A stretch of 13,034 nucleotides of DNA. It comes from a virus (lineage: Duplodnaviria > Heunggongvirae > Uroviricota > Caudoviricetes). The stretch covers positions 1-13,034 of IMG/VR virus record IMGVR_UViG_2654587571_000008; one strand, given 5' to 3'. Shown here piece by piece: positions 7,560-12,559 of the stretch (positions are counted from its first letter, which is position 1; each line of letters begins with the position of its first letter). The position numbers were made by a program, and so were the translations under genes. Below the pieces are notes generated by a model. It was not told where the DNA came from. It saw only the letters and a list, made by a program, of their open reading frames with translations, and ran no database searches.

Positions 7560-8209
7560 GCAGCCATCTCCCTGACCAGTTTTTCCGCCTGCTGGCGAAC
7601 CTGCGCCAGAAAGGCCTCACCACATGCCTCAAGTTCATCGCGCCCGATGTAGCTGATTGCCGGTCCCTTCCAGGTCTTGTCGAAAACAGCAATAGCACCA
7701 GCGAAGAAAGCGCCTGTCGGCACCTGCTTCTCATCCTTCGGGATAAACCAGGCAGGCAGTTCAAAACCAATACGCCCGCGAATAAAAGCAATATGATCTG
7801 CATCTTCCGGCCACCACACTTCGCTGGTGGCAGCTTTGATCAGGAAAACATAGCGACCGCCTTTATCACGCATGGCACTGGCATGCTTCATGATGTAACG
7901 CATGCCGGTGATGTATTGCCCCTCATGCTGACTGGCGCGGCTGTATGGGGGATTACCAAAGGCAGCACCTTTAAGCTCCGCAAGACGTTCTGACCAGTCA
8001 TGTGCCAGCGCGTTGTCTTCCGCCGTGTAATACGCGGCACATTTGGCGTTATCACCGTCAGTGAACAGATCCAGAACAAACGGACCAAACAGGGTGTTAA
8101 TTCCCCAGAAAATGTTATCCGGCGTGCGCCACTGATCGCCCACTTCCTTCAGTTCATGGGCTGGTTTGTTCCGCAGCTCCACCAGCGCCCGGCAATATTT
8201 ATTACTCAT
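7556..8209 (-). CDS. Phage Dam-type N6-adenine DNA methyltransferase (orphan)
   Basis: FGNPPYS catalytic motif. Start placed at the ATG at 8209, which overlaps the upstream stop as TAATG (the track ORF extends to 8242). Confidence 0.75.
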   Translation of the reverse strand: MSNKYCRALVELRNKPAHELKEVGDQWRTPDNIFWGINTLFGPFVLDLFTDGDNAKCAAYYTAEDNALAHDWSERLAELKGAAFGNPPYSRASQHEGQYITGMRYIMKHASAMRDKGGRYVFLIKAATSEVWWPEDADHIAFIRGRIGFELPAWFIPKDEKQVPTGAFFAGAIAVFDKTWKGPAISYIGRDELEACGEAFLAQVRQQAEKLVREMAA

Positions 8210-8697
8210 TAAGCCCCCACGTAATTCCCTGACAGATACCACTCTTCACCTGATGCAGCCCGCTTGTTGCTTTTCCGTAAACACCGTTCACGACGCGCCA
8301 GAAAATTATTTCGTTCTGGCTGGGAGTGGCTTTCACGGAATGCCGCCATCCACACCGTTGCAGCACGACGGTATAAGCCCCTGGACTCCAGTTCTTCAGC
8401 CTGGCGGGTCAGGCACAAAATCACCCGGGGGTCGTTAGTGCCGACATAGAAATTGCGCACAGGTCTGGTTTCACGAACTGGTTGTGGTTCCGGCTCCTGC
8501 GCTCTCTCAGTCAGGCGCGGGAAATGTCTGCGTGTATCCCCTTCACAACGGTGAGCCACACGCCCACTCTGACGTAACTTGCTTGCTGACTGCAGAACGC
8601 GCTGCCGTGAGTAACCAGCAAAAGCATCTGCAATGTCTCCGGAAGTACACCCCGGATGAGCTTCAATGAATTTCTGAACGTCATTTAACAGACTCAT
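8209..8697 (-). CDS. Putative PerC/ANR-family-like transcriptional regulator with an N-terminal winged-helix-like region
   Basis: C-terminal ESRGLYRRAATVWMAAFRE...RRERCLRK resembles the GLWRRAA..W motif of PerC-type regulators (from memory). Start could be ATG 8697 or GTG 8703. Confidence 0.4.
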   Translation of the reverse strand: MSLLNDVQKFIEAHPGCTSGDIADAFAGYSRQRVLQSASKLRQSGRVAHRCEGDTRRHFPRLTERAQEPEPQPVRETRPVRNFYVGTNDPRVILCLTRQAEELESRGLYRRAATVWMAAFRESHSQPERNNFLARRERCLRKSNKRAASGEEWYLSGNYVGA

Positions 8698-8699
8698 GA

Positions 8700-9641
8700 T
8701 CACCCCCTGAATCCTGCCGGGATCTGGCTGTAGTCCACGTTGTCGTAACTGGATTTGAAGTACGGGTCTTCGCGTTTTTCGGTGTACGTGCTGACGGACG
8801 GCGATAAGCGCAGGGAAAGCTCATCCCATTTTTCCCGCAGCTTCGACGGGCTGAGCACGTTACGGCACCAGAACGGATCGCGGCTGACGCGGCTGTACAT
8901 CTCGCAGATTTGTTTGTGAGTACGACTATCCTGCACACACATCAGGCGAATTTCGTTTGCCCAGGCTGTCCAGTTCGGTTCTTTGGGACGAACCACCTCG
9001 CCGTCACATTCGGCGGCCTGCTCGTACAGGGCGATGATTTTTTTCCAGAGCCACTGTGCACAGGTCAAATCATCCTGCGTTCCCCACTGGCGCTTTTTAG
9101 GGCTGAATACAACCGCATCAGGATGGCGAGTTAAAAACTCCTGTTCAGCCGTCTGCGTGTCCGGTTGCGAAGCGTCCGGACGAGAAGTTTTTTTATCTGA
9201 CGGATCATGTTTTGATTTTACTGACGGATCCCCGCCAGATTCTGACGGGTGAAAACCCGCTTTTTTGCCAGATTTCGACGCATCAAATTTTGACGGGTCA
9301 GATTTTGATGCGTCAGATTTTGACGGGTCAGAATCTGACAGTTGAGAAAATGCCGCTGCCTGAAGCTTCGCAACGTTAAGCTGATAAACATTCGACGCAT
9401 TGCGGTTACCCTGGCGACGCGCCTTACGCGTTAACCAGCCTTCTGCTTCCAGCCGTGCGATAGCCGTTCTGACGGTACTCATCCCCGCGCCAATCTGACG
9501 GGCAATGGTTTCAATTGATGGCCAGCACACACCTTCGTCATTACTGAAATCAGCCAGGCGGGCCATAATTGCCACACTGGATAACTTCATGCCTGATGCA
9601 GCGCAACCATCCCATACATAGCCGGTTAATTTAGTGCTCAT
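8700..9641 (-). CDS. Replication initiator, lambda O-like organisation (N-terminal wHTH, origin iterons inside the gene)
   Basis: 313 aa. N-terminal HTH-like region (WPSIETIARQIGAGMSTVRTAIARLEAEGW). The central low-complexity DPSKSDASKSDPSKFDASKS is encoded by tandem DNA repeats. Confidence 0.65.
   Translation of the reverse strand: MSTKLTGYVWDGCAASGMKLSSVAIMARLADFSNDEGVCWPSIETIARQIGAGMSTVRTAIARLEAEGWLTRKARRQGNRNASNVYQLNVAKLQAAAFSQLSDSDPSKSDASKSDPSKFDASKSGKKAGFHPSESGGDPSVKSKHDPSDKKTSRPDASQPDTQTAEQEFLTRHPDAVVFSPKKRQWGTQDDLTCAQWLWKKIIALYEQAAECDGEVVRPKEPNWTAWANEIRLMCVQDSRTHKQICEMYSRVSRDPFWCRNVLSPSKLREKWDELSLRLSPSVSTYTEKREDPYFKSSYDNVDYSQIPAGFRG
9195..9345. repeat. Iteron array (candidate replication origin) within the initiator gene
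   Basis: Eight or more copies of a TYTGACGG-type unit, including near-perfect 15-bp tandem repeats (gattttgacgggtca / gattttgatgcgtca / gattttgacgggtca at 9301..9345), plus a nearby A/T-rich stretch. Confidence 0.55.
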
Positions 9642-9650
9642 GACCGACCT

Positions 9651-9989
9651 CTATTTCCCTGAATTTACGACGAAACTGTTCGAGCGGACTGAAGCATTCA
9701 TGCTCATAACCTTCGCGGAGGTAGATAACCCGTTGTGTTTCCGGCTCCCAACGAATGACTCTGACGGGCACTCCGTAGTGATCTTTGAACCAGCGGTTAA
9801 CTTGTCGCAAAGGACTGTCTCCTTCTGCCGGTTGAAATCACCCACAGCCCACTCTGCAAAGCTGTGGGTTACAATTTCCCTGTCACCTGGTACATTCACT
9901 GCATAGCAATATTCCACCTTCGCTTTTCCACCCGGTACAGGAAGCGCAATCAGTTGCGAGCGACGGTAGTGTGTTGTTAAACTGTTCAT
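9651..9989 (-). CDS. Hypothetical protein (112 aa) between the CII-like and initiator genes
   Basis: ATGA overlap with the upstream CII-like gene and AGAGG upstream of the following gene. No family recognised. An overlapping plus-strand ORF (9634..9906) makes the strand assignment uncertain. Confidence 0.35.
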
Positions 9990-10543
9990 GCGTTAGTTTC
10001 TCCACAACCAGAAGCAATCGACGCCACGACGCCCGGAGCTGCACACTCGCGGGCGTCATTACTTTCTGAAATGCAAAAGATTTTGTAGACCAGTGCTGCA
10101 TGCTCCTGCAGCTTCGAAATTGAGAGATACAGCTCGTCGTTAATTGCTGTCTTCTCATGCGGTTCCACTACACCGTCTTCGATTGCTGAACGAATCTGTT
10201 TTGAATAACTGCCGATCTGTTCAATGACTTCCAGCAGACGCTGGTTAATATCGGCGTTGTCCACATCCTCGACGTCAGGAAGAGACACAAATACGCCATT
10301 TGCAGACTGCGCCACAGCATCAGCAATGAAGTGAGTGCCACCAGCACGCTGTAAAACCATTGCCCATCCCAGCGGAAAAATCTGATCGCCATCTGCACGA
10401 AGGCGGTTGAATAAAGCGTTCTCTGTTACATCCAGCCAGTCAGCGGCTTCAGCGTAACCACCCGGCAACGCCGCGATAGTTTTTCTGACAGCTTTCACGT
10501 ACCACTCAGGCTGTTTTTCTATTTTCCAGTGATGCTTACCCAC
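9986..10543 (-). CDS. CII-like phage regulatory protein (185 aa)
   Basis: Start placed at GTG 10543, with AAGGAG 6 nt upstream (the track ORF begins at 10648 and would overlap cro). [16 protein letters not shown] resembles CII-type regulators (from memory). Confidence 0.45.
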
Positions 10544-10565
10544 GGCTATCTCCTTAAAACTGTGG

Positions 10566-10814
10566 TTACTTTTCATCTGATGAATCTTTAATCTTTTGAA
10601 AAATATCTGGACGTAATTTTTCTTTTGATATGCCAGTGGTCTTTTCAATGAATATCGAGAGCTTTGCAGGGGGACGCTTTTCTCTGTTCAACCAGTTCCA
10701 GACATGTTGTTGCTTTACTAAATGACCGCTGCTGGCTGTGAGCTTCCGAGCCAATTCTGATTGACCACCAGCCAGAGCGATTGCCTCCGATAAGGCTAAT
10801 TGCTCAGGTGTCAT
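10566..10814 (-). CDS. Cro-like HTH repressor
   Basis: 82 aa with an HTH (QSELARKLTASSGHL). Divergent from the cI-like gene across an operator-rich intergenic region. GGAG Shine-Dalgarno. Confidence 0.7.
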   Translation of the reverse strand: MTPEQLALSEAIALAGGQSELARKLTASSGHLVKQQHVWNWLNREKRPPAKLSIFIEKTTGISKEKLRPDIFQKIKDSSDEK

Positions 10815-10949
10815 AGCTTTCTCCTTTTTTGGTAGTTAAGTTGTTACGAGTTGCAAGAATACAACATTAACAACTTTTATCACAACTTTTAGGTGTTGGA
10901 AAGCTAAAACATAAAGTTGTAACCTCATCAAAAAAGAGAGGGATATGTT
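10815..10949. promoter_or_regulatory. Right operator/promoter region between cro-like and cI-like genes
   Basis: Contains five copies of AAGTTGT/ACAACTT (at about 10838, 10861, 10870, 10882 and 10914) and AGGTGTT. The same sequence blocks recur at 12560..12620. Confidence 0.5.
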
Positions 10950-11636
10950 GTGAAAACACTGGCAGAACGATTAAAGATAGGTAGAGAGAAAGCTGGCATG
11001 AGCCAAGCTCAACTAGCTGAAAAAATTGGACTTTCACAACAATCTGTAGCCAAAATAGAGAATGGCGAAACTCTACAACCGCGCAAAATTAAAGAAATTG
11101 CAAAAGTTTTAGGTGTATCACAAAAGTGGTTACAACTTGGTATTGAAGATAACGCATCCATACCTGATCTTGTTGTAAAAGAAGCAGAAAGCACCGCATT
11201 AGACCCCGATATTTTCGTAAACATTCCTGTTTTAGATGTCGAGTTATCGGCAGGTAACGGATGTCTGGCTGAAATAGTTGAATCAGCTATTGACTGGTTT
11301 CCGTTAAGAAGAGCAGATTTGAGAAAATCTGGCGTATGTGCATCTAATGCCAAGATCGTAAAAATATGGGGGAACAGTTTATTACCGGTTCTCAATAATG
11401 GAGATCTTGTTGCCGTTGATATTTCTCAAACCGTTCCTATTCGTGATGGCGATCTTTATGCCGTACGAGATGGTGTATTGCTAAGGGTTAAAATACTTAT
11501 CAACTTACCTGACGGTGGCTTGATTCTTAGAAGCTTCAACAAAGATGAGTACCCAGATGAAATACTCACCTTTGAAGATAGACGAGCCAGAATTCATGTT
11601 ATAGGTAGGGTATTCTGGTCATCGCGAACTTGGTAA
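10950..11636 (+). CDS. CI/LexA-type prophage repressor (HTH plus S24 peptidase, autocleavable)
   Basis: GTG start with AGAGAGGGA upstream. N-terminal HTH (MSQAQLAEKIGLSQQSVAKIENGE), an Ala-Gly cleavage site (LSAGNG), catalytic Ser (WGNSLLP) and Lys (LLRVKIL). Confidence 0.85.
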   Translation: MKTLAERLKIGREKAGMSQAQLAEKIGLSQQSVAKIENGETLQPRKIKEIAKVLGVSQKWLQLGIEDNASIPDLVVKEAESTALDPDIFVNIPVLDVELSAGNGCLAEIVESAIDWFPLRRADLRKSGVCASNAKIVKIWGNSLLPVLNNGDLVAVDISQTVPIRDGDLYAVRDGVLLRVKILINLPDGGLILRSFNKDEYPDEILTFEDRRARIHVIGRVFWSSRTW

Positions 11637-12509
11637 TGCATCGAAAAGCATTTCTTCAGAAATAATTTTAAGTTTTGCACCATTATCATCCCTATAAGAT
11701 ATAGCTTTTTCGATCTTCCTTCCGTGACTTGAGAATTTCCAATCACGGGAGGAAAGCGTCCCAATTACTAAAAAATCCAACTTTTGAGTAATTCCACTAC
11801 TGATGTTCCCACCAGCATTTTTAATCAAATTTTCAACTACGGCTCTCTTTCCTGCAACAAAAGTGCCTGTAAGACAATAGGTTTTACCCTCTAACTCTAT
11901 CGAAGCCCCTACATCAATAGGCAGCCTGGTCGCCAAACCATCCACCACCCCACTTTCCAAGTCACATCCTGTGAAGTCTACTAATGCCTTATGTAGAGTT
12001 AAACTCTCATCTTCAGTAATAACCCCATCTTTAAGAATTTCCTTTACAAGTGCATAAAGTTTTTTTCCTGGGTAGTTGTTCTTCAAAGCTCCATTTTGCT
12101 CAAGCCACCAATTAAGATATCTTATTTCTTCTTGAGTTAAGTTCCGATCAGCAATTAATCCTTTACATAGTCCATTAAGTAAATGGACATCTACATCCTT
12201 GGAGTAAAAATCAATTTCAGGGATATCAAGAATTTCCCTCTGTATTTGGAGAAGGCTATTTTTAAGGTCATCACGTTCTTCTGATGTGATTATTCCATCC
12301 GCAAGAATATCCGACACCCGTGCTGATAGACTTTTTATAACTCCATTATTGATAATCTGCTTTGCTTCAAGTAACCATGTATCTAAGTAAAGAACCTCCT
12401 CTTCACGGACAACTCCATCTGCAATGATTCCATCAATGATGCTAATCAAGTTAGCAAATAACTTGTCCCGGTTCTGTGTGTAATTAAAAGCGTAAAGCGC
12501 GTCTTCCAT
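11619..12509 (-). CDS. Uncharacterised protein with four N-terminal DG-x-I-T-x-EE repeats (TerB-like?) and a C-terminal BRCT-like domain; candidate superinfection-exclusion/defence gene
   Basis: Start placed at ATG 12509, with AGGAGG 5 nt upstream. C-terminus GKTYCLTGTFVAGKRAVVENLIKNAGGNISSGITQKLDFLVIGTL...AKLKIISEEMLFDAL follows the BRCT pattern of NAD-ligase C-termini. The 3' end overlaps the cI-like gene by 18 bp. Confidence 0.6.
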   Translation of the reverse strand: MEDALYAFNYTQNRDKLFANLISIIDGIIADGVVREEEVLYLDTWLLEAKQIINNGVIKSLSARVSDILADGIITSEERDDLKNSLLQIQREILDIPEIDFYSKDVDVHLLNGLCKGLIADRNLTQEEIRYLNWWLEQNGALKNNYPGKKLYALVKEILKDGVITEDESLTLHKALVDFTGCDLESGVVDGLATRLPIDVGASIELEGKTYCLTGTFVAGKRAVVENLIKNAGGNISSGITQKLDFLVIGTLSSRDWKFSSHGRKIEKAISYRDDNGAKLKIISEEMLFDALPSSR

Positions 12510-12559
12510 ACAACCTCCTTTTTTTGATAATCCTTGCACTCCTTGGCTACTCGTTCAAA

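What the first reader, a model, noticed from the sequence alone, without database searches (positions are those of the whole stretch)
8700..9641. Origin iterons embedded in the initiator gene, with no helicase or helicase-loader gene downstream
The iteron array at 9195..9345 sits inside the initiator ORF and encodes a repetitive linker, which is the lambda O paradigm. However the next gene is a regulator, not a P/DnaC-like or DnaB-like gene, so replication would have to recruit the host helicase through the initiator's C-terminal domain, or the module is defective.
Basis: partly seen in the sequence, partly recalled or inferred. Interest (0 to 1): 0.4.

Follow-up and report, generated by a model that had tools for sequence, protein, structure and literature searches.

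The report
Loader-less phage origin with DnaT-like tail
This prophage has a lambda-style replication origin inside its initiator gene but no helicase-loader gene, and its initiator ends in a copy of the conserved tail of the host restart protein DnaT, which may be how such phages borrow the host's helicase-loading machinery.

Summary
Window 8700-9641 (minus strand) is an intact 313-aa initiator. Six 17-bp palindromic iterons (CCGTCA-AAATC-TGACGG, 15-bp phasing, 9232-9341) lie in the DNA coding its disordered linker, next to a 30%-GC stretch. No helicase or loader gene is in the window, nor in the whole genomes of the plaque-forming phages SfIV (98% identical here) and LLS.

The globular C-terminal domain is homologous to lambda O's C-terminal domain. 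The last ~12-20 residues are not lambda-like. They match the invariant flexible tail of E. coli DnaT (SQIPAGFRG against SQIPPGFRG).

Across 80 loci from different species, tail type predicted the next gene:
- All 9 initiators with a lambda-like tryptophan-rich tail have a lambda P gene.
- None of 50 with the DnaT-like tail do (Fisher p = 8e-11).
- The rule held whichever N- or C-terminal domain carried the tail.

Best reading: a lambda-type origin and initiator whose tail mimics DnaT and so uses host helicase-loading machinery in place of P. The partner (DnaC-DnaB, or PriA/PriB) is unknown. "Defective module" is rejected. O-only lambdoid modules were called "not yet understood" in 2025. My literature searches did not find the tail link.

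The parts
8700..9641 (-). Replication initiator gene (313 aa + stop): wHTH N-terminal domain, disordered linker, lambda-O-like C-terminal domain, DnaT-like tail
   Evidence: ORF. Pfam HTH_36 4e-11 and PHROG 391 'replication initiation O-like' 2e-134. AlphaFold domain layout. 98% identical DNA in phages SfIV, SfII and Kati.
9348..9641 (-). Codes residues 1-98: winged-helix DNA-binding domain (HTH_36 / DnaD_N-like), not Pfam Phage_rep_O
9232..9341 (.). Six iterons, 17-bp palindromes nCrTCA-N5-TGAyGn. Five are tandem at 15-bp phasing (9265-9341) and one is separate (9232-9248)
   Evidence: 8 matches against 0.38 expected. TRF period 15. The iteron sequence changes together with the N-terminal domain type in related loci.
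9195..9230 (.). Two further CCGTCA half-sites (TGACGG on + strand at 9198 and 9222), overlapping the AT-rich stretch
   Evidence: Motif positions; repeat family D12.
9180..9219 (.). AT-rich stretch (30% GC), the candidate unwinding element beside the iterons
   Evidence: Composition profile. Its position relative to the iterons and to the direction of transcription matches ori-lambda (annotation).
8793..9161 (-). Codes residues 161-283: helical C-terminal domain homologous to the lambda O C-terminal domain
8703..8792 (-). Codes residues 284-313: flexible tail. The last 12 residues, VDYSQIPAGFRG (8703-8738), match the DnaT C-terminus
   Evidence: 8 of 9 identical to E. coli DnaT SQIPPGFRG. Profile-profile alignment covers the tail only, E 4e-5. 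The motif is invariant in 120 DnaT orthologs and kept in distant ones. 0 of 50 loci with this tail have a P gene.
9651..9989 (-). YmfM-like 112-aa gene just upstream; a possible accessory factor, function unknown
   Evidence: Present upstream of 38 of 50 initiators with the DnaT-like tail, 0 of 9 with the lambda-like tail and 1 of 19 with the third tail type. No Pfam, NCBIfam or PDB match.
8209..8703 (-). PerC-family regulator in the position where lambda has P; translationally coupled to the initiator
   Evidence: Pfam PerC 1e-8, PHROG 1324. Not a conserved partner: found downstream in only 16 of 50 loci with the DnaT-like tail.

Best explanation
This is a working lambda-type replication module reduced to a single gene.

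Shown or strongly supported:
- The initiator's winged-helix N-terminal domain has cognate palindromic iterons inside its own linker-coding DNA.
- An AT-rich element lies beside them.
- The gene sits in the early rightward operon, as O does in lambda.

Inferred by analogy with lambda:
- Initiator dimers assemble on the iterons.
- They destabilise the AT-rich stretch while transcription runs through the region.

The new step (inferred from comparative data):
- In lambda, an O C-terminus recruits P-DnaB.
- Here the initiator carries the conserved C-terminal tail of the host primosome protein DnaT (...D-x-x-I-P-x-G-F-R-G-COOH).
- I propose that this tail docks onto whatever host component normally reads DnaT's tail, so that host DnaC loads host DnaB at the phage origin without a phage loader.
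- The most economical partner is DnaC or the DnaB-DnaC complex. In E. coli, dnaT lies immediately upstream of dnaC, in the same arrangement as O-P.
- PriA/PriB is the alternative partner.
For: Origin:
- Six sites against 0.38 expected, and 30% GC next to them.
- Related initiators with different N-terminal domains carry different palindromes in the same place: Edwardsiella GGGTTAACGGTTGACCC, L023 GTTCA-N5-TGAAC, L019 TTGCGG-N5-CCGCAA.
- Nearly invariant residues inside a predicted-disordered linker point to constraint at the DNA level.

Functionality:
- SfIV is inducible and forms plaques, and none of its 54 annotated genes is a helicase or loader.
- LLS is described as O-only.

Tail:
- 8 of 9 residues match DnaT.
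- Some relatives match 14 of 20 (RCVNHISEPDTEIPPGFRG against RDVNTVSEPDSQIPPGFRG), and some about 16 of 20.
- hhalign aligns only the tail, E 4e-5.
- The motif is invariant in 120 DnaT orthologs, and IPxGFR survives in deeply divergent ones.
- 36 of 6353 six-frame ORFs end in this motif, and all 36 are initiators.

Association with the loader:
- P is present in 9 of 9 loci with a lambda-like tail and 0 of 50 with the DnaT-like tail, Fisher p = 8e-11.
- Four more loci with a lambda-like tail also have full-length P.
- P follows the tail, not the globular domain. Lambda-like tails go with P on lambda-O-like, Phg_2220_C and DnaT-type C-terminal domains. DnaT-like tails occur without P on the first two and, in the one informative DnaT-type locus, without any loader within 1.9 kb.

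Literature:
- The last five residues of lambda O are essential (PMC6022878).
- The DnaT tail is a flexible 20-residue segment, and how DnaT recruits DnaB/DnaC is unknown (PMC5778457, PMC13377028).
Against: - No binding was tested, and no partner of the DnaT tail is known, so the central step is inference.
- The association could partly reflect shared ancestry of an SfV/e14-like early region. The spread over several N- and C-terminal domain types argues against this but does not exclude it.
- An uncharacterised 112-aa gene (YmfM-like) sits upstream of 38 of 50 initiators with the DnaT-like tail and of none with the lambda-like tail. It could be the real replacement for P.
- One initiator with a DnaT-like tail outside this family (P0328) is followed by a 125-aa fragment that matches only the C-terminal half of P.
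- A second loader-less group has a different tail, so the DnaT-like tail is not the only route.
- Published work gives the DnaT 154-179 segment only a role in cooperative ssDNA binding (PMC4132743).
Confidence: 0.6

Rival explanations
1. An unrecognised phage-encoded partner replaces P. The upstream 112-aa YmfM-like protein, or less likely the PerC-like protein downstream, would be a new helicase loader or adaptor, and the tail would be incidental or would bind that protein.
For: The YmfM-like gene lies upstream of 38 of 50 initiators with the DnaT-like tail, and also in LLS and SfIV. It is upstream of 0 of 9 with the lambda-like tail and 1 of 19 with the third tail type. It has no known domain.
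Against: Ten intact loci with the DnaT-like tail lack it. The PerC-like gene is downstream in only 16 of 50. This reading does not explain why the tail copies a host protein's invariant terminus.
Confidence: 0.13
2. The tail acts on DNA or on the initiator itself, not on a host protein. As reported for DnaT residues 154-179, it would increase cooperative ssDNA binding or oligomerisation. The initiator would then hold the unwound strand, and host DnaB-DnaC would load without any specific contact.
For: Removing DnaT residues 154-179 lowers the affinity and cooperativity of ssDNA binding (PMC4132743). The tail contains Phe and Arg. This reading also fits the absence of P.
Against: The tail works on three unrelated globular domains. 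It takes the place of tails that pair one-to-one with a specific loader, which looks like a protein-docking peptide.
Confidence: 0.15
3. A plasmid-like mechanism: the initiator cooperates with host DnaA at the origin, as iteron plasmids do, and DnaA recruits DnaB-DnaC. The tail has another role, for example turnover.
For: The winged-helix initiator with iterons resembles plasmid Rep proteins. There is a weak Pfam hit to RP-C.
Against: No DnaA box lies within about 650 bp of the iterons, and the window's count is not above chance (6 against 3.25 expected). This reading does not explain the tail/P anticorrelation.
Confidence: 0.07
4. The module is a defective remnant that no longer replicates.
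For: No loader gene is present. Some E. coli genomes carry truncated copies (L008, L009).
Against: The ORF is intact and 98% identical to that of SfIV, which forms plaques. Hundreds of near-identical copies occur in viral contigs. Iterons and tail are conserved across genera.
Confidence: 0.03

Closest known systems
Phage lambda O protein and ori-lambda
   Same: The origin lies inside the initiator gene. Dyad-symmetric iterons (6-5-6 here, 6-6-6 in lambda) sit in the linker-coding DNA with an AT-rich element beside them. The operon position is the same. The C-terminal domains are homologous.
   Different: The N-terminal domain is HTH_36/DnaD_N-like, not Pfam Phage_rep_O. Iterons are phased at 15 bp and overlap, whereas lambda's are 20-24 bp apart. 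There is no P gene. Lambda's essential W-rich C-terminus is replaced by a DnaT-like tail.
O-only replication modules of lambdoid phages (phage LLS; 34 of 314 Enterobacterales lambdoids; Genome Res 2025, PMC12315714)
   Same: The initiator is the only replication gene. LLS gp44 has the same N-terminal domain and linker and also ends in ...KIPEGFRG.
   Different: The globular C-terminal domain of LLS is Phg_2220_C rather than lambda-O-like. That paper states the mechanism is not understood, and in the passages I read it does not mention the tail.
E. coli DnaT (primosomal protein I)
   Same: The last 9-20 residues share the invariant motif D-x-x-IP-x-GFRG at the very C-terminus, preceded by a flexible segment.
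   Different: There is no DnaT N-terminal domain and no PF17948 three-helix bundle. The profile alignment covers the tail only. The database names 'primosomal protein' for this phage protein are therefore misleading.
DopC/DopE (domesticated lambda O/P-like pair; Brezellec 2017, PMC5509034) and phage initiators with a DnaT-type C-terminal domain
   Same: An HTH_36 N-terminal domain is joined to a module shared with DnaT.
   Different: Those proteins carry the DnaT globular domain, and DopC is paired with a P-like loader. Here only the tail is DnaT-like and no loader is present.
Iteron plasmid initiators (pSC101 RepA, R6K pi, RK2 TrfA)
   Same: A winged-helix initiator binds iterons and relies on host DnaB-DnaC.
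   Different: Those origins use DnaA boxes, and the iterons lie outside the rep coding sequence. No DnaA box is found here.

Membership tests
Lambda-type origin-in-initiator replication module | Four or more dyad-symmetric iterons inside the initiator gene, in the linker-coding DNA | tested here: met
   Six sites at 9232-9341 against 0.38 expected. They code the disordered linker.
Lambda-type origin-in-initiator replication module | AT-rich unwinding element next to the iterons, on the promoter-distal side | tested here: met
   30% GC at 9180-9219.
Lambda-type origin-in-initiator replication module | C-terminal domain homologous to that of lambda O | tested here: met
   BLASTP 1e-24; phmmer 6e-23.
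Lambda-type origin-in-initiator replication module | Cognate helicase loader (P, DnaC-like) or helicase gene immediately downstream | tested here: not met
   None in the window, nor in the whole SfIV and LLS genomes.
Lambda-type origin-in-initiator replication module | The initiator binds its iterons | not testable with these tools
   Only indirect support: iteron sequence changes together with the N-terminal domain type.
Pfam Phage_rep_O (PF04492, lambda O N-terminal domain) | Match to the family profile | tested here: not met
   Not among the Pfam hits. The N-terminus matches HTH_36 instead.
DnaT / primosomal protein I (PF17948) | DnaT C-terminal three-helix-bundle domain | tested here: not met
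DnaT / primosomal protein I (PF17948) | Conserved C-terminal tail ...PDxxIPxGFRG | tested here: met
   8 of 9 identical. The motif is invariant in DnaT orthologs.
O-only lambdoid replication modules (Genome Res 2025) | An O-like initiator is the only replication gene of the phage | tested here: met
   Window. The near-identical SfIV genome has no other replication gene.
Iteron plasmid replicons assisted by DnaA | DnaA boxes next to the iterons | tested here: not met
   The nearest one-mismatch box is at 9998, and the count is not above chance.

The most novel reading that the evidence does not exclude
The ...IPxGFRG tail is the peptide by which DnaT hands the primosome to DnaC-DnaB. On this reading dnaT-dnaC is a domesticated phage initiator-loader pair. 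O-only lambdoid phages have copied this peptide onto their own origin-binding proteins, so that host DnaC acts as their loader. More generally, the last 10-20 residues of phage initiators would be an exchangeable 'address label' that decides which helicase loader is used: a tryptophan-rich tail for P, GFRG for host DnaC, and other tails for other partners.
Probability: 0.3. Interest if true: 0.8.

Novelty: new variant of a known kind. Interest (0 to 1): 0.62.

Why it matters
Two open questions would become directly testable. First, how do the roughly one in ten lambdoid phages that encode only an O-like protein load the host helicase? A 2025 paper states this is not understood. Second, what does the invariant flexible tail of DnaT do, and how does the restart primosome recruit DnaB-DnaC? 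The 2026 cryo-EM study still calls that mechanism unknown. A short portable peptide that redirects helicase loading would also be a useful tool, and a possible way to interfere with replication restart. Finally, the result corrects a widespread annotation: these initiators are labelled 'primosomal protein' on the strength of about 20 residues.

Tried and rejected
- **Homology to the DnaT bundle.** I tested whether the lambda-O-like domain is a distant relative of the DnaT three-helix bundle. hhalign aligns only the tail, so this is rejected.
- **Database searches on the C-terminus.** Pfam on the last 148 aa found no family. NCBIfam and PDB sequence searches gave only winged-helix hits.
- **DnaA boxes.** None near the origin.
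- **Promoter scan.** No sigma-70-like sites in 8000-11200.
- **Literature on the DnaT tail.** I found no assigned partner. Searches for PGFRG, 'DnaT-like' and 'initiator-solo' found nothing relevant.
- **Viral contig scan.** It returned only near-identical copies, useless for comparison.
- **Context of more distant tail-bearing proteins.** Several contigs were too short to be informative.
- **Tail-partner docking.** This could not be attempted, because only single-chain structure prediction was available.

Full report
**Setting.** The window is the early-right and lysis region of a lambdoid prophage, read on the minus strand. The gene order is:
- cI (10950-11636, plus strand)
- cro/YdaS-like (10566-10814)
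- CII-like YmfL (9986-10648)
- a YmfM-like 112-aa gene (9651-9989)
- the initiator (8700-9641)
- a PerC-family regulator (8209-8703)
- Dam, a LexA-DBD-like protein, RusA, KilA-N, DUF968/HNH, Q, a methylase, holin and the lysis genes.

The stretch 8200-10000 is 97-98% identical to the Shigella phages SfIV and SfII and to several Escherichia phages.

**The observation.**
- The ORF 8700-9641 is intact and codes 313 aa.
- On the coding strand the repeat reads CTGTCAGATTCTGAC / CCGTCAAAATCTGAC / GCATCAAAATCTGAC / CCGTCAAAATTTGAT / GCGTCGAAATCTGGC. A sixth site, CCGTCAGAATCTGGC, follows after a spacer, and two CCGTCA half-sites follow that.
- Each unit is the left 15 bp of a 17-bp palindrome, CCGTCA-N5-TGACGG, and neighbours overlap by 2 bp.
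- The consensus with up to 3 mismatches occurs 8 times, all within 9232-9341. Shuffles give 0.38 expected. TRF finds period 15.
- The array codes LSDSD-PSKSD-ASKSD-PSKFD-ASKSG, which lies in a segment AlphaFold predicts to be disordered (residues 102-154).
- A 40-bp stretch at 30% GC follows at 9180-9219.
- The layout matches ori-lambda as annotated in the lambda record.

**Are these the initiator's own sites?** I fetched 80 related loci, one per bacterial species.
- Loci with the same recognition helix and wing (STVRTAI ... RRxGNRNASN) keep the same palindrome across genera from Escherichia to Yersinia and Providencia.
- Loci with other N-terminal domains have other palindromes in the same place. 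In Edwardsiella the phasing is again five codons. Examples are GGGTTAACGGTTGACCC / CCCCCAACGGTTGAGGG in Edwardsiella, GTTCA-N5-TGAAC in L023 and TTGCGG-N5-CCGCAA in L019.
- This joint change of protein and site is what an initiator/iteron pair predicts.
- The linker also holds nearly invariant residues (D138-V141, D146, P147) although it is predicted to be disordered. That points to constraint on the DNA rather than on the protein.

**The initiator protein.**
- Residues about 161-283 are a well-predicted helical domain.
- That domain is clearly homologous to the C-terminal domain of lambda O (BLASTP 1e-24). It has no Pfam family and no solved structural relative.
- Residues 284-313 are flexible.

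**No loader.**
- Nothing in the window matches lambda P, DnaC/IstB or DnaB.
- SfIV has 54 annotated genes and none is a helicase or loader.
- A local six-frame search with a P profile and with DnaC found nothing in SfIV, LLS or the window.
- SfIV was isolated by UV induction, forms clear plaques and lysogenises (PMC3851460). The module therefore works.
- A 2025 study of phage LLS states that its replication module holds only an O homologue. [quoted passage not shown]

**The tail.**
- The protein ends ...NVDYSQIPAGFRG. E. coli DnaT ends ...SEPDSQIPPGFRG, which is 8 of 9 identical at the very C-terminus. Lambda O ends ...TNTDWIYGVDL.
- Among 120 homologues of the initiator, tails fall into classes although the preceding globular domain is the same. 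One class is DnaT-like, ending GFR(G/S/T). It includes RCVNHISEPDTEIPPGFRG, which is 14 of 20 identical to DnaT. The others are lambda-like and tryptophan-rich (LDFDNTDWIYGIE..., HWNSPEGWExVL).
- In 120 DnaT orthologues, RDxNxxSxPDxxIPxGFRG is essentially invariant.
- A profile search of 1.8 billion representative proteins shows IPxGFR kept even in very divergent DnaT proteins.
- A profile-profile comparison of the initiator's C-terminal region with DnaT aligns only the last 34 columns, E 4e-5.
- Of 6353 six-frame ORFs in all fetched DNA, 36 end in [IVLTP]PxGFR(x0-2), and all 36 are initiators.

**Tail type predicts the loader.** I classed the 80 loci by tail and scanned the next three genes with Pfam. 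I also searched 6 kb on each side of the initiator match with a P profile.

| Tail class | Loci | With a lambda P gene |
|---|---|---|
| Lambda-like, tryptophan-rich | 9 | 9 |
| DnaT-like (GFRG) | 50 | 0 |
| Third class (...WNxIWK...) | 19 | 0 |

- Fisher's exact test for DnaT-like against lambda-like tails gives p = 8e-11.
- In place of P, the loci with the DnaT-like tail have Dam, other methylases, LexA-DBD-like proteins, PerC or RusA.
- Four more initiators with lambda-like tails, looked up separately, also have full-length P.
- The tail is independent of the rest of the protein. DnaT-like tails occur on lambda-O-like domains, on Phg_2220_C domains (including LLS gp44) and on genuine DnaT-type C-terminal domains. 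They occur with at least three kinds of N-terminal domain.
- Lambda-like tails on each of those three domains are followed by P (L062, L175, L176). P therefore tracks the tail, not the globular domain.

**Mechanism proposed.**
- The initiator binds its iterons and opens the AT-rich element, as in lambda.
- Its DnaT-like tail then engages the host component that reads DnaT's tail, and host DnaC loads DnaB.
- The partner is not known. The literature I could read describes the DnaT tail only as a flexible 20-residue segment (PMC5778457) that contributes to cooperative ssDNA binding (PMC4132743). [quoted passage not shown]
- I favour DnaC or DnaB-DnaC. In E. coli, dnaT lies directly upstream of dnaC, which mirrors the O-P arrangement. 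In one locus (L074) an initiator with an IPEGF-containing tail is followed by a DnaC-like loader.
- This choice of partner is inference, not a result.

**Complications.**
- The YmfM-like gene upstream of the initiator co-occurs with DnaT-like tails: 38 of 50, against 0 of 9 lambda-like and 1 of 19 third-class. It has no recognisable domain. It may be an accessory replication factor or merely linked, and ten intact loci with the DnaT-like tail lack it.
- One protein outside this family (P0328: HTH_36, a DnaT-type domain and a GFRG tail) is followed by a 125-aa ORF matching only the C-terminal half of P. This is either a remnant or a short loader.
- The third tail class is also loader-less, so other solutions exist.
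- The loci are not phylogenetically independent, although the domain shuffling reduces that concern.

**Comparison and novelty.**
- The module works like lambda O/ori-lambda, but it fails the defining feature of a cognate loader and lacks the Phage_rep_O domain.
- It is not a DnaT family member, despite the database name 'primosomal protein'.
- O-like proteins with a DnaT C-terminal domain were noted in 2017 for DopC (PMC5509034).
- O-only modules were noted in 2025.
- My searches found no report linking a DnaT-type tail to the absence of a loader.
- I therefore rate it a new variant of a known kind.

Noticed in passing
window 9651-9989 (-): A 112-aa YmfM-like ORF of unknown function lies upstream of 38 of 50 initiators with the DnaT-like tail, 0 of 9 with the lambda-like tail (which have P) and 1 of 19 with the third tail type. 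It could be an accessory replication factor.
   Followed up: partly
L018-L026, L040, L056, L057, L064, L066, L070, L073, L076-L078, L080, L085 (initiator C-termini): A second group of loader-less initiators (Providencia, Proteus, Yersinia, Rahnella, Ewingella, Buttiauxella) ends in an extension of about 60 aa, ...AWxxIW(K/Q)(E/Q)xxQR.... It sits on either lambda-O-like or Phg_2220_C domains, with no P or helicase within 6 kb.
   Followed up: partly
L074:3777-5409: An initiator with the tail GDIPEGFNQNLPATNQGGTDDDFI (an IPxGF core plus an SSB-like acidic end) is followed by a DnaC/IstB-like loader. This was the only such pairing seen.
   Followed up: partly
L169:3521-5191 and L170: An initiator with HTH_36, a DnaT-type C-terminal domain and a GFRG tail is followed, after 298 nt, by a 125-aa ORF that matches only the C-terminal half of lambda P (profile positions 104-213 of 243). 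It is either a decaying P gene or a short loader.
   Followed up: partly
P0288-P0390: Many phage-like proteins of 250-400 aa carry a genuine DnaT C-terminal domain (PF17948) behind at least five different N-terminal domains. Their tails are GFRG-type, tryptophan-rich or acidic. The DnaT C-terminal half therefore looks like a common phage initiator module.
   Followed up: partly
window 9246-9270: The palindrome CAAAAAAGCGGGTTTTCAC lies between iterons 5 and 6. The same CAAAA-N7-TTTTG palindrome recurs in the linker DNA of many related loci. On the plus strand it scores as terminator-like.
   Followed up: no
window 9463-9501 and 9757-9768: Three extra TCTGACGG half-sites lie outside the array: two inside the winged-helix coding part and one in the upstream gene. 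They may be auxiliary sites or chance.
   Followed up: no
window 11619-12539 (-): A 306-aa protein with a C-terminal BRCT domain is encoded next to cI, in a position typical of a moron or defence gene.
   Followed up: no
L008, L009 (E. coli chromosomes): Initiator copies truncated at the N-terminus (only residues 79-313 remain) keep the tail. These are genuinely defective versions of the module.
   Followed up: no
NC_022749 gp41, PP925833, LR595868 annotations: This initiator is named 'primosomal protein' or 'Primosomal protein I' in RefSeq, PHROG and RAST records, although only its last 20-34 residues resemble DnaT.
   Followed up: yes
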